Assembly (NCBI GenBank): GCA_051382335.1
Contig: JBBCAX010000041.1
Span: 1-31,254 of the forward strand
Reading direction: 5' to 3'
Length of the DNA stretch: 31,254 nucleotides
DNA from: Deltaproteobacteria bacterium TL4
GTDB taxonomy: Bacteria; SAR324; NAC60-12
Below, piece by piece: positions 15,351 through 27,420 of the stretch (its first letter is position 1; every line of letters starts with the position of its first letter). The notes below the pieces were generated by a model. The model worked only from the letters and a program-made list of their open reading frames with translations, was not told where the DNA came from and did not search any database. The position numbers were made by a program, and so were the translations under genes.

Positions 15351-17432
15351 TTAATCATTATCCATATTGGTTGCGGAAACATCAGCAGGTTTGAGTTTAT
15401 TGTATTTGAAATCTGAGGTCGATTGATCTGCGTCAATAACGATCGTATAACCAATATTACCATCAACATCCAGATCGTCAACACCTGTTACCGTGACGAT
15501 TTGTGTGGTATTCCAATCCGCCGAAGTAAAGAACAGACTACTCGGAGAAACAGTGCCTTCACTGGTATCACTGCTTGAAACGGCCAGAGTCACCATCGCC
15601 GTAGGTTCGCTCTTCAGTTTCACCGTAAATGTTGCGGTTCCACCGAGCTCCGTAGTATTCCCGCTTATAGCACTAAGCGTAAATCCAGCGCTATCGTCAT
15701 TGACATTGGTCACCACCACACCGACATGACTTAGCCCCTGATAATTTGAGTCAGCAGACGCGGCAGAACCAAAAATGATGGTATAATTCTGATTTCCATC
15801 ATCGATAGCATCATTCACTCCGGTTACCGTAATGATTCTCGCCGTATTCCAATCCGCAGGATCATCCATTTCCGCTTTGAAGGTGAGACTGGAGGGAGAA
15901 ACCGTACCTTCCGTCGTATCACTGCTGGAAACAAAGACCTGAACATTATTCCTGGGAGGAGTATTGAGCCTCACCGTAAACGTTGCGATTATACCCGATT
16001 CTGCGGTATTGCCACTGATGCCGCTCACCGTAAACCCTGGAGAGAGATCCTGGTTGACAACAGTAACATCACTTGGATTCAAGGAGTTATACCGGGCATC
16101 CGTAGAGACCGCAGGATCCAGAATAATGGAATAAGTCTGATCTCCATCCACCAGTTCATCATTAATCCCCAAGACAGTAACGGTCTGAGGTTCATTCCAG
16201 GCGGCTGCGGTAAACGTCAACGTCAAGTCGGTCACGCCCACACCGTCTTTTAAGACCTTCCCTTCACTCACGTCACTACTGGTTACTTTGACCTGAACAT
16301 TTGTGGCTGTAGCGGGTTGACTGGTTAATACCACAGTAAACGTTGCCTTGGCTCCGGCTTCTGAGGTGTTTCCGCTGATGGCACTCACCGTGAATCCCGG
16401 GGTATCATCATCGGTGTTGATCACGTTCACACTTGCGGGTGTCAAGACAGCATAATCCGCATCATTGGTGACAATGGATCCCAAGTTGATTTTATAAGCT
16501 TGCTTCCCATCGGCTTCATTGTCATTAATCCCTGTGACTGTAACCGTCTGGATCGTATTCCAGTTAACAGGCGTGAAGGTAAGACTCGGAGGCAGCACGG
16601 TTCCTTCGCTCTCGTCAGAACTTGTCATGAAAATTGTAACATTATCTGTGGGAATACTGTTCAAACGGACCGAAAATGTCGCGGTCCCAGCGGCTTCAGT
16701 GGTGAACGTACTGATTGCGCTGACATTAAAACGGGCAATATCATTATCAGTGTTAATGACAGTGACATCCTCCGGATCATGCGAGTTATAGTTGGGGTCC
16801 TCAGAAGAAGCGGGTCCTAAAATCACGGTATAGGTCTGATCTCCATCTTTAAACGAATTATCTTTTCCATAAACCGTGAGGGTCTGCTCCGCGTTCCAGT
16901 TAAACTCAGTAAAAAGAACGCTTTCAGGAGAAACCGTACCCCTTGTTGGGTCACTGCTCGAAACCGGGATGGTGACAGTCATTCCTTCCGCGGGTTTGCT
17001 GTTTAAGCCTAAAGTAAAGGTCGCGCTTCCACCAGCTTCGGTCGTGGGGCCACTGATGGGACCCACACGAAATTTAGAAATAAGCAGCATTTCAATATTC
17101 AAAACCGTGGTCCCACGGCCGATTTCAACTTGCCCTGTAAAATCCACATAACCTTCCTTCCGAGCAACAATGGTGTAGGTCTCTCTCTCAATCTCTTCAA
17201 AAACATACGTTCCACTTTCCACAGTTGCCACATCATCCAAATCTCCAAAAGAAATAACCACGCCCGCCAGCAGCATCCCGTTGGACGCGTCTGTGATCAC
17301 CCCCCTCAGTTTTCCCTTATCCGTTGACGAAACAGCCTCATTCGAAGTTGACGAGTCGTTGCTGGAACAGCTATACTGAAACAGAGCCATCAGGATGAAT
17401 CCTATCGAAAGCATAAAGTATAGTTTTTTCAT
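15351..17432 (-). CDS. Putative surface lipoprotein: carboxypeptidase-regulatory-like beta domain plus 5 Calx-beta-like repeats
   Basis: Signal peptide ending FQYS-C; LRGVITDA...GTYVF...YTIVARKEGY domain; five repeats of about 115 aa (TxExGxxATFTVxLxSxP...SSDxxEGTVSP...FTxxNWNxxQTVTVxGxxD...DGxQxY...NxDND). Confidence 0.8.
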   Translation of the reverse strand: MKKLYFMLSIGFILMALFQYSCSSNDSSTSNEAVSSTDKGKLRGVITDASNGMLLAGVVISFGDLDDVATVESGTYVFEEIERETYTIVARKEGYVDFTGQVEIGRGTTVLNIEMLLISKFRVGPISGPTTEAGGSATFTLGLNSKPAEGMTVTIPVSSSDPTRGTVSPESVLFTEFNWNAEQTLTVYGKDNSFKDGDQTYTVILGPASSEDPNYNSHDPEDVTVINTDNDIARFNVSAISTFTTEAAGTATFSVRLNSIPTDNVTIFMTSSDESEGTVLPPSLTFTPVNWNTIQTVTVTGINDNEADGKQAYKINLGSIVTNDADYAVLTPASVNVINTDDDTPGFTVSAISGNTSEAGAKATFTVVLTSQPATATNVQVKVTSSDVSEGKVLKDGVGVTDLTLTFTAAAWNEPQTVTVLGINDELVDGDQTYSIILDPAVSTDARYNSLNPSDVTVVNQDLSPGFTVSGISGNTAESGIIATFTVRLNTPPRNNVQVFVSSSDTTEGTVSPSSLTFKAEMDDPADWNTARIITVTGVNDAIDDGNQNYTIIFGSAASADSNYQGLSHVGVVVTNVNDDSAGFTLSAISGNTTELGGTATFTVKLKSEPTAMVTLAVSSSDTSEGTVSPSSLFFTSADWNTTQIVTVTGVDDLDVDGNIGYTIVIDADQSTSDFKYNKLKPADVSATNMDND

Positions 17433-17589
17433 AACTCAATCCCGTTTAGAAATTCAAAAATAAAATCGGTAAGGTTGAGGTCCCTTACTTGATTGTGACA
17501 ATAATAAAACGTTTTGTTAATAGAAATTTTCTGAGAGTTACTAATCATTTTTTAGTGTTCTTCAAGACCTAGCGCCAGGTGTTCGTCAT

Positions 17590-19959
17590 CTACAATTCGT
17601 CATCCACATTGAGCACAACCATGGATTCAATCTTCCATCCCGCATAATTAGTGTCTTCAGATTCAATACTGCTGAAATTCACCAAGTATAGCTGGTCTCC
17701 ATCTTTGTCATTATCATCAAGGCCTGTAACGGTCACCGTATGTTCCAAATTCCAATTTTCTGAGGTAAAGTTAAGAATTGAAGGCGACACACTACCTTCC
17801 GAAGAATCACTGACATTAAGATCAATATTCACATCCGCTATGGGTTTTGAAGTTAATTTTACAGTAAAGGTTGCTGTTTCACCCGCTTCTGTTGTGCTTC
17901 CACTAAGTTCGCTCACTGTCACACCGGCACTATCCCTATCAAAATTCAAACCATCAACACCGGGCGGTGTTCGTTTATCGTACTTGGGATCATCGGAAGC
18001 AACGCTTAATAGGACTGTGAAGGATTGATCCCCATCTTGAATATCATCCCCTATTCCCGTCACTGTAATATTTTGAGCAGTATTCCAATTTACTGTGGTA
18101 AAGATCACACGTTCTGGACTAATCCTAATTTCATCCGTTTCATAGGTTGAAAAATCGAAAGTCACATCCGCAGTAGGTTCTGTCCGCAATTTAACCGTAA
18201 AACTCGCACTGCCTCCATCTTCAGAAGTATTTCCATCCAGTTTCCCCACATAGAACCCTGCAATATCGTCATCCTCATTGATGACGTTCAGCCCCTTATG
18301 AACTAATCCATTGTAACGATAATCGCTGGAAGTCGAGGAAATGCTGATGTGATATTCTAAATTTCCATCATCAATGTGATCATTTTTCCCTGTTACCTTA
18401 ACCACTTGATCGACATCCCAATCGTCTGCGTGAAACGCTAGCTTTGAAGGAAAAACACTGCCTTCTGTGCTGTCATCACTGGCCACATCAACGATAACAT
18501 TGGTGGTCGTTTTGTTACTCAAACGGATGGTAAAGGTCGCGGTACCCCCGGTTTCAGTAGTATTTCCGCTGGGTTTTCCCACAATAAAACCTGCAGTCAT
18601 ATCCCTATTGGTTACAGGAACATCTGCCGGATCCAGCGTGTTGTAAAAACTATCGGTTGAGGTTGACGCACCAATCACCACCTTAAAAATTTTATCACCA
18701 TCCACTTCATCATCAGCCACCCCCTTGATCGTAATCATTTGTGGAACCTTCCAATTCAGGGCAGTGAACGTGAGACTAGCGGGAGCGACCGTACCCTCGG
18801 TCAGGGTATCACTTGAAACAGGAAAGGTTACCTCCGCTTGAGGTTCTGTATTTAAGGCCATGGTGAAGGACGCAATTTCTCCAGTTTCAAAGGTACTGCC
18901 ACTTAGCGCGCTTATCGTAACCCCAGGCGTCGGATCTGCGCTTTTGTTGGTGACACTCATGTCTTCAGGATCCAAACCATCATAACCACTATCTGAAGAA
19001 ATAGCGGGACCAATGGCAACCGAATACACCTTATCCCCATCAACAATTAAATCATTCAAACCAATCACAGAAACAATCTGTTCCGCATTCCAGTTATCCA
19101 GCGTAAAAGTGAGGCTCAGCGGAGACAAGGCGCCTTCGGTTTCGTCGCCTGAAGCCAAGGGCAGAGTTACCTCTGAGGTGGGTTGCGAACTGAGTTTGAC
19201 GGTAAAAGTCGCTTTAGTCCCGGTTTCACTGGTACTGCCGCTAATACTGCTCAGGATAAAACCGGGAGTATCATCGTCACTATTCGTAAGTAACACGTCT
19301 TTCGGATCCCAATTATTGAAAGTGAGATCTTCTGAAACACATTTTCCCAGAATAATTCGAAACACCTGATCCCCATCATCAACAACATCATCAATGCCAG
19401 TGACCGTTACCACCTGATTGGAATTCCAATTATCCACGGTAAAAACCAATTGGTCCGGAGAAACAATCCCTTCAGAAAGATTGCTGCTTGAAACGGGGAC
19501 GGTCACTTGTGAGGAGGGTTTTACGTTTAATTTCATCGTAAATGTGGCGGTTCCGCCAGCTTCTGTAATGGCTCCCTGGGGATCCCCGACTCTAAATTTG
19601 GAGAGGAAATGCATTTTGACATTCAGGACGTTATCTGAACGAACAACCGTCACTTTTTTATGATAGTCCTGGTATCCGTCTTTGATCGCAATCAAAAGAT
19701 AGTCTCCGCTTTCAAGGTCTTCAAGCGAGTACTGTCCACTTTCATCGGTGATAGCGGAGACTGTTCCAAGAAAGACAGTCGCTCCTGAAATCACTTCTTC
19801 CGTCGAATCATCCTGAACGACGCCCTTCACCGTTGAGGTTGCTTTAGGAGCATAAGGATCCGGGTTATCTTGAGATTCACCGCATCCCAGCAAAAAGACC
19901 AAGGAGAAGAAGAACCCACCTAAGGTAAATCGACAAAGAACGCACAGGTTATTTGGCAT
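17590..19959 (-). CDS. Putative surface lipoprotein, paralog of 15351..17432, with 6 Calx-beta-like repeats
   Basis: Lipobox LLG-C; VKGVVQD...TDESGQYSL...KDGY domain; six repeats with the same consensus; the start overlaps the motB-like stop by 11 nt. Confidence 0.8.
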   Translation of the reverse strand: MPNNLCVLCRFTLGGFFFSLVFLLGCGESQDNPDPYAPKATSTVKGVVQDDSTEEVISGATVFLGTVSAITDESGQYSLEDLESGDYLLIAIKDGYQDYHKKVTVVRSDNVLNVKMHFLSKFRVGDPQGAITEAGGTATFTMKLNVKPSSQVTVPVSSSNLSEGIVSPDQLVFTVDNWNSNQVVTVTGIDDVVDDGDQVFRIILGKCVSEDLTFNNWDPKDVLLTNSDDDTPGFILSSISGSTSETGTKATFTVKLSSQPTSEVTLPLASGDETEGALSPLSLTFTLDNWNAEQIVSVIGLNDLIVDGDKVYSVAIGPAISSDSGYDGLDPEDMSVTNKSADPTPGVTISALSGSTFETGEIASFTMALNTEPQAEVTFPVSSDTLTEGTVAPASLTFTALNWKVPQMITIKGVADDEVDGDKIFKVVIGASTSTDSFYNTLDPADVPVTNRDMTAGFIVGKPSGNTTETGGTATFTIRLSNKTTTNVIVDVASDDSTEGSVFPSKLAFHADDWDVDQVVKVTGKNDHIDDGNLEYHISISSTSSDYRYNGLVHKGLNVINEDDDIAGFYVGKLDGNTSEDGGSASFTVKLRTEPTADVTFDFSTYETDEIRISPERVIFTTVNWNTAQNITVTGIGDDIQDGDQSFTVLLSVASDDPKYDKRTPPGVDGLNFDRDSAGVTVSELSGSTTEAGETATFTVKLTSKPIADVNIDLNVSDSSEGSVSPSILNFTSENWNLEHTVTVTGLDDNDKDGDQLYLVNFSSIESEDTNYAGWKIESMVVLNVDDEL

Positions 19960-20599
19960 CTACCGTACCATCAAACAACAAGTTAATTTCGTCCAACGAT
20001 TTCGGAGGAGTGGTCAGAATAATTTCTACCCGTCGATTAATCAGCCTGGCCTTTACCAACTCTTCGCCTTTCAAGGGACGGTTAAGATAATCAACGTAAG
20101 GAATTTTGGGGCGGGCATCGGCATAAGCGCTGATAGAAATCCGATCCAGAGGAAAATCCAGGTACCGGGTTAAAAAATGAGCAATACTCGTAGACCTGGC
20201 AGAACTTAATTCCCAATTACTGGGATAACGTTGATTGTGAATGGGGACATTATCGGTGTGCCCTTCGACAATCACCAGATCATGTTGGTGCTCAGGAAGA
20301 GATTTAACGACTTGAAAAAAGGCAATGAGCGGTTGATGGGCCTTCGGCTGGATATCGGCTTGCCCCGAACGAAACAGGAAATCCTGGGGCAAGGAAATAA
20401 TACAACTTAACCTATTGGATCGAAGTTGATAATCACGGAATTCATCTTGATGATCCCGCATGTAGTTTTGTATTCCTTCACAATCCTTTGGCGCCGTAGA
20501 AAGGGTGGTTAATAAAACAAAAAAACAAAACAAAAGTGTCATTAAATCTGAGAAGGTGATCACCCAACCTTCTAAATTCTTTGGTTTTCGTCCACCCAT
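19949..20599 (-). CDS. motB: MotB/PomB-family stator B subunit (TM plus OmpA-like peptidoglycan-binding domain), short form
   Basis: TM WVITFSDLMTLLFCFFVLL with the essential Asp; LFRSGQA, VEGHTDNVP, SNWELSSARS, YADARP, NRRVEI. Confidence 0.9.
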   Translation of the reverse strand: MGGRKPKNLEGWVITFSDLMTLLFCFFVLLTTLSTAPKDCEGIQNYMRDHQDEFRDYQLRSNRLSCIISLPQDFLFRSGQADIQPKAHQPLIAFFQVVKSLPEHQHDLVIVEGHTDNVPIHNQRYPSNWELSSARSTSIAHFLTRYLDFPLDRISISAYADARPKIPYVDYLNRPLKGEELVKARLINRRVEIILTTPPKSLDEINLLFDGTVDAK

Positions 20600-20604
20600 A
20601 TCGT

Positions 20605-21564
20605 TTATAATCCCAAATCGCCACTACGTAATGCCGCCATTCTCTTTTCAAGAATTTGGTTACGATACTCCCACGGCAGGTAAATGATCAAATCTTGCGC
20701 ACTCACCTCGGGTAATTCTCTCCGTTTCAAATAAACTAAACTTTCGCGAATCATTTCCATCAACATCACATGAGATTCTTTCAACTGATACCGTTTCGAA
20801 GCAATCGGTAAGAAGATCAACTGCGCTAACATTACCCCGTAGAGGGTCGTAATCAAGGCGACAGACATTCCGCCCATCACCCCGGAAACGTTAGTCCCAG
20901 TTTGACCCAACATTAAAATCAAACCAACCACCGTTCCAATCATACCAAAAGCAGGAGTAGCGGCCCCCATAAATTCCAAAACATCGATTTCCTCAAAAGA
21001 ACGATAGTTGTACATTTCAATCTCTGAGCGCACAATCTCACACATCATTTCTTCTTCCACGAGATCTACCGCGATAAAATCCTGCAACCAACGTCTGAAA
21101 TCCTTATTCACAACGGCGTTGATCTCTTCATCGGTAATCAGCTCATTGCGAACCCGTTTTGTGGCAAGTTTCTGAACCGTATCATACACGTCCAAAAACT
21201 CCGCCACCTCCGTTTGAGCACGGAGTGCCCGGGCCATAAACAAAATAGCGGCCATCGCCTTGTTAAAAGGAAAGGCAACCATCGTTGCGGCATAGGCTCC
21301 GCCCAGTACAATCAAGATGGATTTCAAGTCAATAAACCGGGTGATAGAACCCTCCCAGGAATCCTGAAATTCCTGAAATTCTTTCTTTTTTTCGAGAATT
21401 ACGGCACTTGAGGCTTTTTGCTCTTTTAGCTGAATCATGATCGTCTCATGATGTCTGAGCTGATACATGTAATAATTTGAAAGGTGGTCGGGCCAGGTAA
21501 TTCCAAAGAAAATCAAAAAAACGCCGAACAAAAAACCGAATATGGTCCCCAGTGTATCTTTCAT
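20605..21564 (-). CDS. motA: MotA/PomA-family stator A subunit with periplasmic insertion
   Basis: FIDLKSILIVLGG (TM2), PAFGMIGTVVGLILML (TM3), MSVALITTLYG...IFLPIASK (TM4), large cytoplasmic TM2-TM3 domain; 5 nt from motB. Confidence 0.9.
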   Translation of the reverse strand: MKDTLGTIFGFLFGVFLIFFGITWPDHLSNYYMYQLRHHETIMIQLKEQKASSAVILEKKKEFQEFQDSWEGSITRFIDLKSILIVLGGAYAATMVAFPFNKAMAAILFMARALRAQTEVAEFLDVYDTVQKLATKRVRNELITDEEINAVVNKDFRRWLQDFIAVDLVEEEMMCEIVRSEIEMYNYRSFEEIDVLEFMGAATPAFGMIGTVVGLILMLGQTGTNVSGVMGGMSVALITTLYGVMLAQLIFLPIASKRYQLKESHVMLMEMIRESLVYLKRRELPEVSAQDLIIYLPWEYRNQILEKRMAALRSGDLGL

Positions 21565-21606: not shown

Positions 21607-23466
21607 TTATTCATAGCCCAATGCGGGAACTCCCGCATTTTGCCCTTCCCAGGTTGCATTAACTTCTTTAAGATTAACCTTGTCATCCGCAGCCATCTGA
21701 CGCATGGCTTGAGAAAAAATCCGGCGTTTCCCTTTGATTTCTTCCACGGTAGGTGTTTTTGCCTTCAAGGCAGAGACCAAGGTTCCTCTGCTTTGCTCAG
21801 GGAAACACAATACCACCGCTTCTTGAATCTCTTTCGGTGCGCCACAGATTGCGGTCAGGACATCATCTGGAGGAAGTTTTCGTACCACCTCAAGCAACAC
21901 ATCCCTGGGTACAACAGGAATCGAGTCAAAGATAAAGCACTGACCTTCAACAATCTCGCTTAACTTTTGATCAGAGACACGTAACCCATTGAGGATTTCC
22001 TGCCGAGTGATGGCATCGGTTTCGCCCAAAACATCAACAACCAGTTCCACCCCATTGACAGAAACCGTATTATCATCAGGCAGATTCTGAGCTTTGCTGG
22101 CTAAAGTATAGGCGATTTGTTCAATGAGGTCCAAAGGCAAGCCTTCCATTTTCCCCAGTTGAATCATCACCCGGGTCCGTTCTTCCTTGGGAAGTTTTTG
22201 GAGGATAGTCGCCATCAATGCTCCTGACAAACGGCTAATGACAATCGCCTTGATCTTCGCCGGTTCTTCTTCAATCAGAAAACTGATCTGATTGGGGCTT
22301 AGCTCCTTCAAAAAAATAAAGGGATCCGTGTGGTGGTCTTCCGGCGCTATCAGTTTTTTTGTGAACAGGAACGTCCAAACATCTTTCAGCACTTGATGCG
22401 ATTCTTGCACCGAAGGATGGACCTCTCTCACCATTTTTTCCAAATCCAAATAGTCCGCGGAACCGATCATTTTAGAAAAAATTTTCCGCGCTGTCTGCGG
22501 TCCCATGATGGCAATGAGTTTAATGAAGGTTTCTGTGGACTGCTTATCCCTGGTCAATTCCTGAATCAATTGCTGATTCCAGTCATCTCTTCCAACCAAC
22601 TGTTTGATGACCTCTTGAAGCAAACGATGATTTTCTTCGTTCAACATCATTTCATCAATCTGCGCTTGCTGATGAGCCCACATTTCTTCCCGTGCGCGTT
22701 CAATCGTTTTCAAGGCGTCTTGAGTCGCGGGCAGCAGTGTCGAATTTGAAGGCGCGGGGTAATGATCCGACGCAGGAGAAGTTTTGCTGGTCTTCTGAAG
22801 ATTTCCGAGTTTCCAGAGGATGGTCAACAATAACAAAACCAGAACCCCGGCGAGTCCAAGCAGTATCCAGTCTTTTAAAGTCAACAAAGGCCCTTCATTT
22901 ACAGAATTTGAAGGTTTTCCTTGGGCCGCACCTATTTCGGTTTGTTTTTCTGAGGTTGCGCTGTCCCCTGTCGTTTTAGCATCCTCTTTTTGAATAGCCG
23001 CTAATTCCGGTTTAATCGGCAAGAAATTAAATTGATCCCCTCGCTGTAAATTCAAGCCGCTCAAAACCGGCACAATTTCGGTAATGTAGGTGCTGATGGA
23101 GGGGGAGATTTCTTTATAAAGCACCAGATCAATGCGCATTTGGGTAATTTCCCAAACCCCTTCCTCGGGAATAGACCGAGAAGGTTCACTGGCAGGAGTT
23201 CGGGCTTGTTCAAAGCCGGGAAGAGCGTCCTCAGCGTTCACCTCTTCAAACTGGGACACTTTATTCAAAGTCGGCACCCTCCCCTTCAACCAGACTTTCA
23301 ACACATAATCTTGAGGAGCGAGATAATACTTTAAGCTGCTGCGAAGGGCATCTTCGATTTCATATTGCTTCATCTGTAGCGACTTGACACGTTCCTGAGC
23401 CTTTGCCGTCGTCAGCAACCCCAAGCAAACAATCCCCATCGCCAAAATTCTCATTAAATTTCTCAT
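21607..23466 (-). CDS. Fusion of a FliF-like periplasmic ring domain, one TM helix and FliG (N/M/C-like domains)
   Basis: Signal peptide ending AKA; periplasmic domain ending SGLNLQRGDQFNF (resembles the FliF G-x4-RGD motif); TM WILLGLAGVLVLLLLTILW; IMGPQTARKIF (FliG-N-like); PFIFLKELSPNQISFLIEEEPAKIKAIVISRL (FliG-M); NGVELVVDVL...CFIFDSI (GG linker and MFxF equivalents, FliG-C). Confidence 0.78.
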   Translation of the reverse strand: MRNLMRILAMGIVCLGLLTTAKAQERVKSLQMKQYEIEDALRSSLKYYLAPQDYVLKVWLKGRVPTLNKVSQFEEVNAEDALPGFEQARTPASEPSRSIPEEGVWEITQMRIDLVLYKEISPSISTYITEIVPVLSGLNLQRGDQFNFLPIKPELAAIQKEDAKTTGDSATSEKQTEIGAAQGKPSNSVNEGPLLTLKDWILLGLAGVLVLLLLTILWKLGNLQKTSKTSPASDHYPAPSNSTLLPATQDALKTIERAREEMWAHQQAQIDEMMLNEENHRLLQEVIKQLVGRDDWNQQLIQELTRDKQSTETFIKLIAIMGPQTARKIFSKMIGSADYLDLEKMVREVHPSVQESHQVLKDVWTFLFTKKLIAPEDHHTDPFIFLKELSPNQISFLIEEEPAKIKAIVISRLSGALMATILQKLPKEERTRVMIQLGKMEGLPLDLIEQIAYTLASKAQNLPDDNTVSVNGVELVVDVLGETDAITRQEILNGLRVSDQKLSEIVEGQCFIFDSIPVVPRDVLLEVVRKLPPDDVLTAICGAPKEIQEAVVLCFPEQSRGTLVSALKAKTPTVEEIKGKRRIFSQAMRQMAADDKVNLKEVNATWEGQNAGVPALGYE

Positions 23467-24752
23467 TCGCCTTCTCCCAACCGTTCAAGGTACTGTACAA
23501 TAACTGCGTTACTCGGGTCGAGTTCCAATGATTTTTTCCAATGCTTCGCCGCTAAACTTTTCCATTTCAAGCGATAATAGATAGAGCCCAGCATCGCGTA
23601 AGCCTGAGCAGAACGAGGGTTATACTCAATCGCCTGCTGGATCTTGTCCAGAGCTTTTGAGTAATCCTGCTTAAAAAACTCCTGTCTGGCTTCCAACAAA
23701 CGTTTCGCGGATTTAAACTCAGCGTCCTGATTCCTGGATTCCGACTCAGGATCGGGTGTATTCCCAGCTTTGGCGACAGGCTCTAAAGGAACAGGCATTG
23801 AGAACAAGGGATCAACAGGTTCCTCCGTAGGTTTTTGCTGAGGATCTTTCTGCGCGGTCTTTTCAGATTTTTTCGTTTCGTCTGTCTGAGGCTGTTCTTC
23901 CGACACCATCTCTGACCTTTGAGAACTAGAGGAAGGGACATAGGCGATTTCCATACGATCTTGGGAACCAAGATTCAACTCATCGACCTGAGCGTCTAAA
24001 CTTTGACGTAAGACTTCAACCTCAAAAGACGATAAAGCGGAGTTAACCACGATGAAGACCGTTTTAAAAACCTGCAGTTGATTCACCAGGCCCAAGACAT
24101 TCTTGGTCTCCGTTGGAACCCATACGTGATTTGAGAACCCCGGAAGTTTGATCCTCGAGATTTGCTTATGACTCTCACTGATCGGAAGGGTTTGAATGAC
24201 ATAATGACTGCTGACAGTAACACTTACATATTTTTTGAGCAGTAGGGGCTTTAGCAGTTCGTGGAGTTTTTTCCGCAACGCGTTTTCCGCAAATTGCTGT
24301 TCCGCGGTTGAAGGCAAACGAACCTCACCTCGCTTCTGTTCATAAGGAGTCTCTATGAATTCGGATGAAACCTCAGAGGTTTCCTTGGGAAGTTCTTTTA
24401 TTTGCTCAAAAGGCTTGGTCATCGCTTTTTGAGTTTTCTCAGCATCATCCGCAGGCGAAAGCGCTGTTAAGGTTTGAGGTTGTTTCGTTGATGTTTCCTT
24501 AGAGGCAGCGTTTGAGGAACCGTTTGGTGTGACTTTGCCTTTGGGAGGAAACGCCAAGGTGGAATTCATTTCTTCCAGTTTGGTTTCTTCCTGTTTTTTA
24601 GCATTCACATCCACCTTCACGGACTCCACCAAGGCTTCTTTGGATGAGGCCGATGCGGCTGAGGAGGTGTCCGTTTGCGCGTTGAGAACCTGTGTCAGCC
24701 CCCCCACCCAAAGGAGCACAGACACGGATAGCATGAGGTTGCGTACTTTCAT
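23463..24752 (-). CDS. Exported protein with low-complexity linkers, one FliF-like ring domain and C-terminal TPR repeats
   Basis: Signal peptide ending LNA; ENALRKKLHELLKPLL..VSVTV...LPGF...VFIVVN...LNLGSQDRMEI parallels the ring domain of neighbouring genes; TPR DYSKALDKIQQAIEYNPRSAQAYAMLGSIYY...WKKSLELDPSN; ATGA overlap with the next gene. Confidence 0.7.
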   Translation of the reverse strand: MKVRNLMLSVSVLLWVGGLTQVLNAQTDTSSAASASSKEALVESVKVDVNAKKQEETKLEEMNSTLAFPPKGKVTPNGSSNAASKETSTKQPQTLTALSPADDAEKTQKAMTKPFEQIKELPKETSEVSSEFIETPYEQKRGEVRLPSTAEQQFAENALRKKLHELLKPLLLKKYVSVTVSSHYVIQTLPISESHKQISRIKLPGFSNHVWVPTETKNVLGLVNQLQVFKTVFIVVNSALSSFEVEVLRQSLDAQVDELNLGSQDRMEIAYVPSSSSQRSEMVSEEQPQTDETKKSEKTAQKDPQQKPTEEPVDPLFSMPVPLEPVAKAGNTPDPESESRNQDAEFKSAKRLLEARQEFFKQDYSKALDKIQQAIEYNPRSAQAYAMLGSIYYRLKWKSLAAKHWKKSLELDPSNAVIVQYLERLGEGE

Positions 24753-24753
24753 T

Positions 24754-26070
24754 TTATTTTGCCAATGAATTTAACATTTGAAGTGCATCCTGATCCTCAG
24801 GATCAAGGCTAATCACATGTTTCCACGTTTCGCGAGCTTGCTCTTTTTCTTGAAGTAAAAAGTGCAAGGACCCTTTCATTTTCAATAAGCTGAGTTTATC
24901 TTTTCGTTGCACAGCAACTTTCAAGGCCTGTTGAATTAAGGCTAAGCCATTGACGTAATCGCCTGCTTCAAACGCTGTGTTGATCTGAGTTTGTAAGCGA
25001 TGCAAGGTAACCAACTTTTCGGAGGTAATCACCCCTTCCTTCTCAGGAAAACGCTTGCGGCTAATATTCAGTTGATCCCCACGGTCAGGATTGATACTGA
25101 CGATCAGCGGGATAGAACGCTTTAAGAAAGCATCCACTTCCGGCGCGACCGTATCGTTCAACAACACCTCAATATCCATTCTGATCTCATCTGACGTATT
25201 TTTCACCCCTTTGTCGGATGTTTTCTTTGAGGACGCTCCCTGGATTAAAACAAACTTGACCTTGGTTACAAAATCATTGAGGTTCACATATTCACTAATG
25301 AGTTTTTCAATTTTTTTCGTCAAATCCTCCTCTTCACGGGGAGCAATACTGACCGGAGAGGCCTTGGGAAAAACAGTCCGTTCCACCGTAATGACGTCGC
25401 CCCGTTCCTTGACATAAAACATCTGTGACGGTAAGAGCAGGTTCACAAATCTTTCCTGATAATCCGGCAAAGCGTTATCCAACAGGATTTTAATATCCTG
25501 ACGCACCACCGCGCGTTCCAACTCGTAATTGATATTGATGCTTTTTTCTTCCAGAGAGGATGCCGCTTTGAGCAGAGGCGCACTTTTCAACTGGAGCTCA
25601 TCCAATTTCTGTTGGTCCCATACCAAGCGCAAAGACACGCTAAAACGATCCAAGGGAAGATACCTGGCCAATAAACTTTCAACACGGGCTTTCTGATCCT
25701 CTTCATACTTACCTGTCTGTGGACCAAACTTAACCGTTGTGGGGTCTTGCAGAGGGACAGAAATCACAAAATTCTGGTCTTCAATCTTATGTGAAATTGT
25801 TGAATCAATACCGTCTTTCTTCAACAAAATCCGAATCGTATTCTGACCGCCTAAACTTTCCTCGATCACACTGATGGAACCATTACCGCCATCCGTACTC
25901 TGGGTATAAATGACTTTTTTCTGGAATTTTTTTACTTCAGAGGGAGGAGCCGTGTATTTATCAAAAGAAGCACAGCCCACAATCAGGGAGAAGAACACTC
26001 CCACACACAGTGAACTGATGAAAAAACTTCTGTCATTTTTTAAACGAATCATTTGCTTCATAATATCCAT
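24754..26070 (-). CDS. Lipoprotein with two tandem FliF-like ring domains and C-terminal TPR
   Basis: Lipobox IVG-C; internal duplication YEEDQKARVESLL...KERGDVITVERTVFP and EEEDLTKKIEKLI...PDRGDQLNISRKRFP; TPR end KGSLHFLL...WKHVISLDPED. Start could be 26070, 26061 or 26052. Confidence 0.72.
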   Translation of the reverse strand: MDIMKQMIRLKNDRSFFISSLCVGVFFSLIVGCASFDKYTAPPSEVKKFQKKVIYTQSTDGGNGSISVIEESLGGQNTIRILLKKDGIDSTISHKIEDQNFVISVPLQDPTTVKFGPQTGKYEEDQKARVESLLARYLPLDRFSVSLRLVWDQQKLDELQLKSAPLLKAASSLEEKSININYELERAVVRQDIKILLDNALPDYQERFVNLLLPSQMFYVKERGDVITVERTVFPKASPVSIAPREEEDLTKKIEKLISEYVNLNDFVTKVKFVLIQGASSKKTSDKGVKNTSDEIRMDIEVLLNDTVAPEVDAFLKRSIPLIVSINPDRGDQLNISRKRFPEKEGVITSEKLVTLHRLQTQINTAFEAGDYVNGLALIQQALKVAVQRKDKLSLLKMKGSLHFLLQEKEQARETWKHVISLDPEDQDALQMLNSLAK

Positions 26071-26142: not shown

Positions 26143-27183
26143 TTAAAATTGCCATCCCATGGCCACGTATTGAGCACCGCTCGTCTTAGGATTAGTAGGG
26201 GCGGGTTGAAAACTTAACTGGTAAAAATTAAACGTTAATTTTTCTCCCACGGTTGCTTTTAATCCAAACTTAACAAAAACCGGAGAGGAAATGGGGGTCA
26301 CAAACAAATTCCCAACGCCAAGCACCGCGTCCAATGCGCCACGAACCCCGGGGAATCGCCATTCATAAGCAACCGTACCATCCACAAGAAGTCCATCAAG
26401 TCCGTCACTCAAGCGGATGTCCAAATTCGAGTTATCATCGGTTAAAAAGGCCACCGTTCCCGAAAATAACCAACTTTCAGAGATTCTTTGCGCGAACTCC
26501 ACACCAAAGATGAAAGCGGAATGTTCCACTTGTTGGGTCGCTTTATCAGAAACGCCATCTCCGTTCTGATCCACCCGTTCGCCCGCGACGGTTTTGGTAT
26601 AAGTCACTTCGATCGGAATGTTCAATTTTCCGAAAAATCCATTCGTATATTGAACCTTGCCCCCGGGATCCCCGGTAATGATCTCAGAAAATACGATTTT
26701 GCCGTCTTTGGCCTCATAAGCCGCCAAGGTCATGGAGAGTTGATCCTGGCTCATGAAAATACCGATATCCAGAAAACCTTGAACATTCAACTCTGCGGCC
26801 TTTGTTCTTCGGTAATCTTCATCAGCGATCCCCCGACTCACTTTTAAATAATTCCCACGAATTTCACTTCGAATCTGACTGCACTCCTGGCATCGGCTCA
26901 CCGTTAGATAGTTATCCCGGGTCAACAGGTCATACAGCCTTGAGACCAAAACTTTTTGAAGGTCGGTTTTGATGTTTTCATCGACAGTCGTTGAGGAAAT
27001 CGCAACCGATTCAATCCGCTGACGCAAACGCCCAATCGCTTCCAACAACAGCGGAGTCATTTTTTCCAATTGAGCAATCTCACGATCTTCCCAGAAAATA
27101 GTCGACTTCGTCTGCTCCTTTCCCATTGCGGAGAAATTCACACCGAGGAAACCAATCATAAACAACACTGCAATTTTCTTCAT
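26143..27183 (-). CDS. Putative outer-membrane protein: periplasmic alpha/beta domain plus C-terminal beta-barrel
   Basis: Signal peptide MKKIAVLFMIGFLGVNFSAMG from ATG 27183 (GTG 27246 also possible); alternating amphipathic strands in the C-terminal half; ends YVAMGWQF (terminal Phe beta-signal). Confidence 0.62.
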   Translation of the reverse strand: MKKIAVLFMIGFLGVNFSAMGKEQTKSTIFWEDREIAQLEKMTPLLLEAIGRLRQRIESVAISSTTVDENIKTDLQKVLVSRLYDLLTRDNYLTVSRCQECSQIRSEIRGNYLKVSRGIADEDYRRTKAAELNVQGFLDIGIFMSQDQLSMTLAAYEAKDGKIVFSEIITGDPGGKVQYTNGFFGKLNIPIEVTYTKTVAGERVDQNGDGVSDKATQQVEHSAFIFGVEFAQRISESWLFSGTVAFLTDDNSNLDIRLSDGLDGLLVDGTVAYEWRFPGVRGALDAVLGVGNLFVTPISSPVFVKFGLKATVGEKLTFNFYQLSFQPAPTNPKTSGAQYVAMGWQF

Positions 27184-27420
27184 TCTACCTTTCTCTGTCT
27201 GTACCCATGCCAATGTGAGTTTTGTTTGAGAAATTGCAATTCGCACACCAACCCCTTTCTTCTTGTATTTCTCTTTGCAAATTAAATGTCAACTATGTTT
27301 TTATATTTTTTATATTTTTGCTAGAAATACGACAACGATCATGTTAAACGAAAACCAGTGTCATGTAACAATGACTTTTTCATGCGATGATTTTGACAAT
27401 CCTCATTCGAAGGTTGAACG

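What the first reader, a model, noticed from the sequence alone, without database searches (positions are those of the whole stretch)
21607..23466. Natural single-chain rotor: signal peptide, FliF RBM3-like domain, TM, FliF-C-like helix, FliG N/M/C
Seen: cleavable-type signal peptide; periplasmic domain of about 125 aa ending GLNLQRGDQFNF; a single TM; then LLQEVIKQLVGRDDWNQQLIQELTRD followed by FliG-like segments in the right order. Established: FliG is normally a soluble protein that co-folds with the FliF C-terminus, and FliF has two TMs with RBM1-3; FliF-FliG fusion mutants in Salmonella remain functional. Inference: TM1, RBM1 and RBM2 (which enclose the export gate) and most of the beta-collar are missing, giving a minimal rotor ring without type III export coupling. 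I recall natural FliF-FliG fusions being mentioned for non-motile Chlorobium; that is unverified recollection.
Basis: partly seen in the sequence, partly recalled or inferred. Interest (0 to 1): 0.88.

Follow-up and report, generated by a model that had tools for sequence, protein, structure and literature searches.

The report
Flagellar-type rotor-stator motor without flagellum
This gene fuses the ring-building end of the flagellar protein FliF to the whole rotor protein FliG and sits in a conserved operon with its own ion-driven stator and outer-membrane partners; relatives of the operon occur in bacteria where no flagellar genes were found, so it is likely an undescribed rotary motor that drives something other than a flagellum.

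Summary
Confirmed (minus strand, 619 aa). Residues 26-154 fold like FliF RBM3 (Z 13.2), one TM follows, and 307-613 align with full-length FliG. It is no chimera: 44 of 88 SAR324-phylum genomes carry it, and distant forms occur in Balneolota, Fibrobacterota, KSB1, Calditrichota and Elusimicrobiota. The gene lies in a five-gene core with MotA, MotB, a TPR lipoprotein and an LpoB-like/OmpA-barrel outer-membrane protein (12 of 17 and 55 of 65 loci complete). SAR324 adds three more RBM3-like domains on secreted neighbours. 14 of 35 tested carrier genomes lack flagellin, FliP, FliM/N and FliF; in these, fusion and MotB counts match one-to-one. One is non-motile Gracilimonas tropica. This genome keeps a separate ordinary FliF and FliG. 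Best reading: an ion-driven, likely one-directional rotary envelope motor. Rotation, ring formation and output are untested, and the FliG torque-helix charges are altered. The natural fusion in print is Chlamydia's (a different architecture), not Chlorobium's. I found no paper on this system. The scan has noted it before on other genomes (e1-2513607 and eight more).

The parts
21607..23466 (-). FliF(RBM3)-TM-FliG fusion protein, 619 aa (putative rotor subunit)
   Evidence: full-length homologues
23398..23466 (-). N-terminal signal peptide, aa 1-23, predicted cleavage after AKA
   Evidence: hydropathy; AxA|Q/E-like site in 36 of 37 homologues; SignalP not run
23005..23391 (-). FliF RBM3 (S-ring) domain, aa 26-154, with shortened collar insertion holding the invariant LPGF (aa 82-85) and the RGD motif (aa 142-144)
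   Evidence: VIA Z 13.2 to 8z5v, 12.7 to 6sd1; Foldseek; YscJ_FliF_C on distant members
22813..22869 (-). single transmembrane helix, aa 200-218 (equivalent of FliF TM2)
   Evidence: a matching strong segment in all 37 aligned homologues; helix in model
22546..22623 (-). helical segment aa 282-307 at the position of the FliG-binding C-terminus of FliF
   Evidence: helices in model; conserved; sequence match to FliF-C not significant
21628..22548 (-). FliG N (shortened), M and C domains, aa 307-613; FliM-binding motif and torque-helix charges altered
20605..21564 (-). MotA/PomA-type stator A subunit, 319 aa, with T211, T239, T240
   Evidence: own clade in tree
19949..20599 (-). MotB-type stator B subunit, 216 aa: TM with Asp18, plug, OmpA-like peptidoglycan-binding domain
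23463..24752 (-). secreted 429-aa protein: linker, one RBM3-like domain (about aa 150-275, with LPGF), C-terminal TPR
   Evidence: hhalign to fusion RBM3 prob 88, E 3e-6; TPR
24754..26070 (-). 438-aa lipoprotein: conserved beta-domain, two RBM3-like domains (aa 120-229, 243-336), C-terminal TPR; carries the core TPR-lipoprotein module
   Evidence: (prob 96.8 and 72.7); cross-phylum homology of the module
26143..27246 (-). outer-membrane protein (likely start ATG 27183): LpoB-like periplasmic domain plus 8-stranded OmpA/NspA-type beta-barrel
   Evidence: AF2 pLDDT 86.5; VIA Z 17.4 OprF barrel, Z 9.3 LpoB; cross-phylum homology; Atlas
15351..19959 (-). context only: two CarboxypepD_reg/Calx-beta repeat lipoproteins (789 and 693 aa) directly downstream; not a conserved part of the operon
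   Evidence: many paralogues in this genome; not at this position in the relatives listed

Best explanation
The gene encodes a natural FliF-RBM3/TM/FliG fusion that likely forms the rotor ring of a stand-alone, ion-driven rotary motor whose MotA/MotB stator and outer-membrane partners are encoded beside it. Shown: the domains, the five-gene core, its retention under purifying selection, and its presence in genomes where no flagellar genes were found. Inferred steps: (1) after signal cleavage, subunits would oligomerise through RBM3 into an S-ring-like ring, with FliG rings below the membrane and no export gate inside; (2) the dedicated stator, anchored to peptidoglycan by MotB and probably Na+-coupled, would engage FliG-C and turn the ring; (3) with the FliM-binding motif altered and no FliM/N in many carriers, it would lack a CheY switch and run in one direction; (4) torque or force would pass through the TPR lipoprotein, and in SAR324 through extra RBM3-like rings, to an outer-membrane barrel protein. 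The work done there is most likely moving or assembling a surface structure (fibre or adhesin), not swimming.
For: Domain identity by fold. A profile of aa 24-380 only (no FliG M/C) retrieved distant proteins; 71 of the 72 full-size ones scanned carry FliG domains and at least 25 also YscJ_FliF_C. Five-gene core on one strand in 12 of 17 SAR324 loci and 55 of 65 other loci; all misses but one are at contig ends; partner families are homologous across phyla. 14 of 35 carriers lack flagellin, FliP and FliM/N, 7 of them single-chromosome assemblies. In those 14 there is no FliF, every FliG_C hit lies in a 609-649 aa frame, and MotB-plug counts equal fusion counts. The stator keeps MotB Asp18 and three threonines at the motif positions of the PomA Na+ site. 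Operon MotAs form their own clades. dN/dS is 0.07 in an aflagellate pair. A second copy in 5 of 5 Balneolaceae loci read follows DUF4402 and usher-like genes, and the usher-like protein ends in the same TPR as the lipoprotein.
Against: No rotation, ring, complex or expression was observed. The torque helix lacks the acidic pair of canonical FliG; in SAR324 the canonical Arg position is Gln or Lys (R in 2 of 37), though a nearby Glu and Arg are nearly invariant. Operon MotAs did not form one clade: the SAR324 group joins other SAR324 stators (99/92), with long branches flagged. Nothing is known to be rotated: no rod or filament gene is in the operon. G. tropica is described as non-motile and no gliding was reported for Balneolota. 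The usher identity had no Pfam or PDB support, and this genome has no match to the chaperone-like gene. In one locus (L126) the stator genes are not adjacent.
Confidence: 0.6

Rival explanations
1. The same parts form a static or ratcheting trans-envelope machine: the stator pushes or twists a ring that is tied to the outer membrane, as Tol/Ton motors act on outer-membrane partners, without continuous rotation (for example gating, assembly or load sensing).
For: Partners are an outer-membrane barrel and a lipoprotein that could tether the ring; no shaft gene in the operon; torque-helix charges altered; a cultured carrier is non-motile.
Against: The stator is of the flagellar MotP/PomA type with a plug and an OmpA-like domain, not ExbB/TolQ-like, and all three FliG domains are kept across phyla.
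Confidence: 0.2
2. It is a surface-motility (gliding-type) motor that drags adhesins or fibres along the cell.
For: Large CarboxypepD_reg surface lipoproteins flank the operon here, on contig C33 and in G045; the Balneolaceae second copy sits in a fibre-like cluster.
Against: G. tropica, with two copies, is described as non-motile; gliding is not reported for Balneolota; the adhesin-like neighbours are not at this position in most SAR324 relatives listed.
Confidence: 0.1
3. It energises the type IX secretion system in lineages without GldLM.
For: SprA is present in 3 of 3 non-SAR324 carriers tested.
Against: SprA was not found in G000 (100% complete) or G043 (95%), so it cannot explain this window; no T9SS gene was recognised among the conserved neighbours.
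Confidence: 0.04
4. It is an alternative rotor or accessory of the ordinary flagellum.
For: 42 of the 44 SAR324-phylum carriers also have canonical FliF; the SAR324 operon MotA groups with other SAR324 stators.
Against: It lacks RBM1/RBM2; 14 of 35 other carriers have no flagellar export, switch or filament hit.
Confidence: 0.04
5. It is a decaying flagellar remnant or an assembly chimera.
For: Sequence divergence from canonical FliG and loss of motifs.
Against: Full-length homologues in 44 of 88 SAR324-phylum genomes and several other phyla; conserved gene set; dN/dS 0.07 and 0.38 in the two unsaturated pairs of five.
Confidence: 0.01

Closest known systems
Flagellar rotor-stator core: FliF MS-ring + FliG + MotAB/PomAB (Salmonella, Vibrio), including engineered or mutant FliF-FliG fusions
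   Same: RBM3 fold, TM2, FliG N/M/C in the same order as a FliF-FliG fusion; stator of MotP/PomA type with plug, Asp and threonines.
   Different: No TM1/RBM1/RBM2; N-terminal signal peptide; short collar; FliG-N shortened by about 30 aa; EHPQ motif and torque-helix charges altered; no export gate, rod, FliM/N or filament genes in the operon; outer-membrane barrel and TPR lipoprotein partners; found in genomes with no flagellar hits.
Chlamydiaceae FliF-FliG fusion (Bergeron 2016, PMC4768692; abstract and passages read)
   Same: A natural FliF-FliG fusion in a non-flagellated bacterium.
   Different: About 330 aa, keeps both TMs and RBM2, lacks the SpoIIIAG-like domain (RBM3), carries only a FliG-M-like region and is proposed to work with the injectisome. 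This protein keeps RBM3 and all of FliG and comes with a stator.
SpoIIIAG sporulation ring
   Same: RBM3-type ring-building fold used outside the flagellum.
   Different: Weaker structural match (Z 7.2 against 13.2 for FliF); no FliG or stator.
Other 5:2 ion motors outside flagella: ExbBD, TolQR, AglRQS, GldLM, ZorAB
   Same: Ion-driven inner-membrane motor that acts on envelope or outer-membrane partners (PMC12505986 section 6, for ExbBD/TolQR/AglRS/ZorAB; GldLM recalled).
   Different: None is known to me to drive a FliG ring (recalled); this stator scores far better against MotP/PomA than ExbB/TolQ.

Membership tests
FliF (flagellar MS-ring protein) | RBM3 (YscJ_FliF_C) domain | tested here: met
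   VIA Z 13.2/12.7; Pfam hit on at least 25 of 71 distant fusions, none on the query itself
FliF (flagellar MS-ring protein) | TM1 plus RBM1-RBM2 (YscJ_FliF) ahead of RBM3 | tested here: not met
   RBM3 starts at aa 26, directly after the signal peptide; no PF01514 hit
FliF (flagellar MS-ring protein) | C-terminal FliG-binding helices | tested here: inconclusive
   helices at the right position; hhalign with one canonical FliF tail not significant
FliF (flagellar MS-ring protein) | self-assembly into a ring | not testable with these tools
FliG (TIGR00207 equivalog) | N, M and C domains in order | tested here: met
   N domain shortened
FliG (TIGR00207 equivalog) | soluble protein of about 335 aa above the family cut-off | tested here: not met
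   67.6 bits against cut-off 226.7; membrane-anchored 619 aa
FliG (TIGR00207 equivalog) | EHPQ motif in the M domain (FliM binding, role recalled) | tested here: not met
   EHPQ in 5 of 5 canonical FliGs; D/E-E-P-V/A/S in the SAR324 fusions
FliG (TIGR00207 equivalog) | torque-helix Arg and acidic pair (E. coli R281, D288/D289; numbers from PMC12505986, mapped by motif) | tested here: not met
   acidic pair absent; Arg position Q/K in SAR324 (R in 2 of 37) but Arg in 17 of 17 of the non-SAR324 set
Flagellar stator (MotAB/PomAB) | B-subunit TM aspartate, plug and OmpA-like domain; A subunit closest to MotP/PomA | tested here: met
   (scores below the equivalog cut-offs)
Flagellar stator (MotAB/PomAB) | Na+-site threonines (PomA T158, T185, T186; PMC10374538 passages) | tested here: met
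   T211 in 44 of 44, T239 in 39 of 44, T240 in 44 of 44 operon MotAs; mapped by motif, no pairwise PomA alignment shown
Bacterial flagellum (whole system) | type III export gate, FliM/N switch and filament in the same genome | tested here: not met
   none found in 14 of 35 carrier genomes; this genome has separate canonical FliF and FliG
Chlamydia-type FliF-FliG fusion | two TMs, RBM2 kept, RBM3 lost, FliG-M only | tested here: not met
   opposite architecture
MgtE N-terminal / ARM repeat protein | better match to MgtE_N than to FliG | tested here: not met
   MgtE_N E 3e-5, below cut-off, against FliG_M 1e-11 and FliG_C 2e-12; the best fold matches are FliG
Chaperone-usher fibre cluster (second copy in Balneolaceae, not this window) | usher barrel, chaperone and pilin subunits | tested here: inconclusive
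   DUF4402 on five small genes (two over cut-off); no Usher or PapD hit

The most novel reading that the evidence does not exclude
A widespread, flagellum-independent rotary machine: a one-gene FliF-RBM3/FliG rotor turned by its own MotAB stator and coupled, through a TPR lipoprotein and (in SAR324) a stack of extra RBM3 rings, to interchangeable outer-membrane outputs (a small barrel here, an usher-like protein in Balneolaceae). It would be the smallest FliG-based motor and a working example of a rotor-stator without type III export, rod or filament.
Probability: 0.55. Interest if true: 0.95.

Novelty: categorically new. Interest (0 to 1): 0.86.

Why it matters
FliG rotors are known to me only from flagella. 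A survey of 11,365 species found rotor proteins without filament genes in 11% of non-motile species and raised the possibility of another function (PMC12199754, section 14 read). This operon gives a concrete, testable candidate, and a cultured non-motile carrier exists (G. tropica DSM 19535, two copies). If it turns, it shows that rotor and stator can work without export gate, rod, switch or filament, which bears on how the flagellar motor evolved. It would also offer a one-gene rotor for structural and engineering work, and point to an unknown envelope function in abundant marine SAR324 and several little-studied phyla.

Tried and rejected
Chimera or artefact: rejected by conservation. A read-level check was not possible: no sequencing run was listed for this stretch, which is no evidence either way. 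MgtE/ARM reading: rejected. Sequence search of the RBM3 profile against PDB found nothing; only the fold search identified it. The ESM Atlas hit for RBM3 (0.87, YscJ_FliF_C clusters) is below the tool's 0.9 line and counts as a lead only. FliF-C helix homology: not significant. T9SS motor as a general explanation: rejected for SAR324; the GldM search rang nowhere, controls included, and is uninformative. Calx-beta lipoproteins as core parts: rejected, since they are a large paralogue family here and are not at this position in relatives. One origin of the operon stators: not supported by the tree, which used 55 of 86 MotA rows with near-duplicates dropped. Usher and chaperone identity by Pfam, NCBIfam or PDB sequence: no hit. 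Literature searches that found no description of this system: (listings), plus term searches inside PMC13277936, PMC12505986, PMC12199754, PMC11271337 and PMC12827227. The library lacks most subscription papers, and no supplements were opened, so a mention in such a paper or table could have been missed.

Full report
Observation. The ORF at 23466..21607 is on the minus strand and encodes 619 aa. It has a weakly hydrophobic N-terminus (aa 3-21) and one strong TM (aa 200-218); all 37 aligned homologues have a matching strong segment. The mature domain begins at a conserved position after an AxA|Q/E-like site in 36 of 37 rows (permissive pattern, SignalP not run). Pfam finds FliG_M (391-463) and FliG_C (495-599); MgtE_N is weaker and below its cut-off. 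All 12 PDB sequence hits are FliG or a FliF-FliG fusion construct. An AlphaFold2 model from a 37-row alignment (mean pLDDT 78.9, pTM 0.38) matches FliF RBM3 at aa 26-154 (Z 13.2 to Vibrio 8z5v, 12.7 to Salmonella 6sd1, SpoIIIAG 7.2) and full-length FliG at aa 307-613 (Z 13.5-15.4; rmsd 10-14, read as different domain orientation). A profile of aa 262-380 ranks the FliG-N chain of the T. maritima FliF-C/FliG-N complex first, at E 0.13. The collar is shortened rather than absent: a roughly 40-aa insertion with an invariant LPGF remains. The FliF-C identity of aa 282-307 is positional only.

It is a real, conserved gene. Source names of close homologues are SAR324. 44 of the 88 genomes of the phylum have a match at E below 1e-50 (my count), and 42 of those 44 also have canonical FliF. 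This genome has its own FliF, FliG and a further MotA/MotB set on other contigs, so the fusion is additional to an ordinary flagellar set. A profile of aa 24-380, which leaves out FliG M/C, found 245 proteins among 1.84 billion representatives. I scanned 72 of the 150 listed, chosen as distant and 530-741 aa long (three multi-stretch hits of that size were left out): 71 carry FliG domains, one is a canonical FliF, and at least 25 of the 71 also hit YscJ_FliF_C. Names point to Calditrichota, KSB1, Bacteroidota, Elusimicrobiota and Deltaproteobacteria; a genome scan with a subset gave 65 loci, mostly Fibrobacteria and Balneolaceae. Of five pairs tested, dN/dS was 0.07 and 0.38 in two, and dS was saturated in three.

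The unit is an operon. In the window the minus-strand run is: outer-membrane protein, 438-aa lipoprotein, 429-aa secreted protein, fusion, MotA, MotB, with gaps of 72, 1, -4, 42 and 5 nt. The outer-membrane protein models as an LpoB-like domain (Z 9.3) plus an 8-stranded OmpA/NspA barrel (Z 17.4). Fusion, barrel protein, TPR lipoprotein, MotA and MotB lie on one strand in 12 of 17 SAR324 loci and 55 of 65 other loci; the misses are at contig ends except L126, whose stator genes are not adjacent (the profiles were built from some of these loci). The barrel and lipoprotein families of SAR324 and of Balneolota/Fibrobacterota are homologous (hhalign 97.8 and 99.1%). SAR324 adds RBM3-like domains on secreted proteins: two in the 438-aa lipoprotein (96.8 and 72.7%) and one in the 429-aa protein (88%), and related one- and two-domain proteins in other families of the phylum. 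These could stack as further rings across the periplasm; that is inference.

It does not need a flagellum. Of 35 carrier genomes picked from the 65 loci, 14 have no flagellin, FliP or FliM/N hit, and the three searches agree on those 14 (a fifteenth lacks FliP only). Seven of the 14 are single-chromosome assemblies. In the 14 there is no canonical FliF (4 of 4 flagellated controls have one), all 26 FliG_C hits lie in frames of 609-649 aa, and the number of MotB plugs equals the number of fusions, two in 12 genomes and one in two. These 14 are related (Balneolaceae records and one Rhodothermia record) and are not independent losses. One is Gracilimonas tropica DSM 19535, listed as non-motile (PMC4642740, passage); gliding is not reported for Balneolota (PMC5167729, passages).

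Motor residues. MotB keeps the TM aspartate (D18), plug and OmpA-like domain; MotA scores best against MotP/PomA. T211, T239 and T240 sit at the motif positions of the PomA Na+ site (PMC10374538, passages) and are kept in 44, 39 and 44 of 44 operon MotAs. Against five canonical FliGs, the fusion lacks about 30 residues at the end of FliG-N, has D/E-E-P-V/A/S for EHPQ, and has lost the acidic pair of the torque helix. The canonical Arg position is Q or K in SAR324 (R in 2 of 37), next to E557 and R560 (36 of 37 each), but Arg in 17 of 17 of the other set. This counts against a standard stator contact and fits either a co-adapted interface or a non-rotary use. In a 55-row tree (55 of 86 rows) operon MotAs form two well-supported groups apart from the other, presumed flagellar, stators; the SAR324 group joins other SAR324 stators, with long branches flagged, so one origin of the stator is not shown.

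Clue to the output. The second copy, read in five Balneolaceae genomes, has no recognised barrel-protein gene within the stretch read. It follows four or five small secreted genes (DUF4402, weak), a 276-288 aa chaperone-like gene and a roughly 1000-aa usher-like gene that ends in the same TPR as the lipoprotein, and its MotB carries SPOR domains. Usher identity had no Pfam, NCBIfam or PDB support; that DUF4402 clusters are chaperone-usher systems is recalled, not tested. Two single-copy genomes have the chaperone-like gene without a second fusion, and this genome has no match to it. So the motor core appears with at least two outer-membrane partners, with the TPR module as the common link. SprA was not found in two near-complete SAR324 genomes, so a T9SS role cannot be general.

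Mechanism. Most likely (0.6) the fusion forms a ring without an export gate, the neighbouring stator turns it in one direction using an ion gradient (probably Na+), and the TPR lipoprotein and extra rings pass the force to an outer-membrane protein that moves or assembles a surface structure. Ring, contact, rotation and output are all inferred; no complex prediction was available and no sequencing run was listed. A static Tol/Ton-like use of the same parts is the main rival (0.2).

Known relatives and novelty. The natural FliF-FliG fusion in print is that of Chlamydiaceae, which keeps both TMs and RBM2, lacks RBM3 and carries only a FliG-M-like part (PMC4768692, abstract and passages). The Chlorobium recollection was not confirmed. 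Nine searches and term searches in five papers found no description of this operon; subscription papers and supplements were not covered. A recent survey asks what rotor proteins do in non-motile species (PMC12199754, section 14). The scan's own notes describe the same system on at least nine other windows; I opened them after recording the same reading and, for the usher link, after finding it. They are not counted as support. I class the system as categorically new, built from known parts, with interest 0.86.

Noticed in passing
L064:6887-13772 (G000 contig C33): A second, highly diverged copy in this genome: barrel protein, lipoprotein, 658-aa TM protein with remote FliG similarity (hhalign 94.8%, RBM3 not detected), MotA, and a 540-aa MotB with a Calx-beta insertion, followed by a 1725-aa CarboxypepD_reg lipoprotein.
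   Followed up: partly
L193-L197 (second copy in Balneolaceae): Fusion, TPR lipoprotein, MotA and SPOR-bearing MotB directly follow DUF4402, chaperone-like and usher-like genes; the usher-like protein ends in the lipoprotein's TPR.
   Followed up: partly
L053:8641-10458 and L054:9572-11356: Diverged 595-606 aa fusion-like proteins (FliG part 98% by hhalign) with no stator or partner gene recognised next to them; orphan or relocated copies.
   Followed up: partly
L052:903-13007 (G045): Variant operon with a 746-aa Pro/Lys-rich TM-FliG protein lacking a detectable RBM3, a 449-aa MotB and a 1410-aa CarboxypepD_reg protein; the genes that follow look like a contractile-tail cluster (by eye, not tested).
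   Followed up: partly
window 15351-19959: Two lipoproteins built from about 110-aa Calx-beta-like repeats; related repeats occur on at least 16 other contigs of this genome.
   Followed up: partly
L002 and L003 (G000 C54, C146): Two 274-297 aa frames with a strong C-terminal FliG_C hit and an N-terminus unlike FliG by eye.
   Followed up: no
L037-L050: In SAR324 families f2 and f7 the gene order is MotA, MotB, barrel, TPR lipoprotein, RBM3 proteins, fusion; in marine genera of f1 the genes right after the fusion are unrelated, so the stator genes are elsewhere or upstream.
   Followed up: partly
L021 (G035): The fusion gene is interrupted by stops in this five-contig assembly; assembly error or a broken gene.
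   Followed up: no
L067 (G000 C22:7211-9360): A motA followed by two tandem motB genes, away from other flagellar genes in the 20 kb listed.
   Followed up: no
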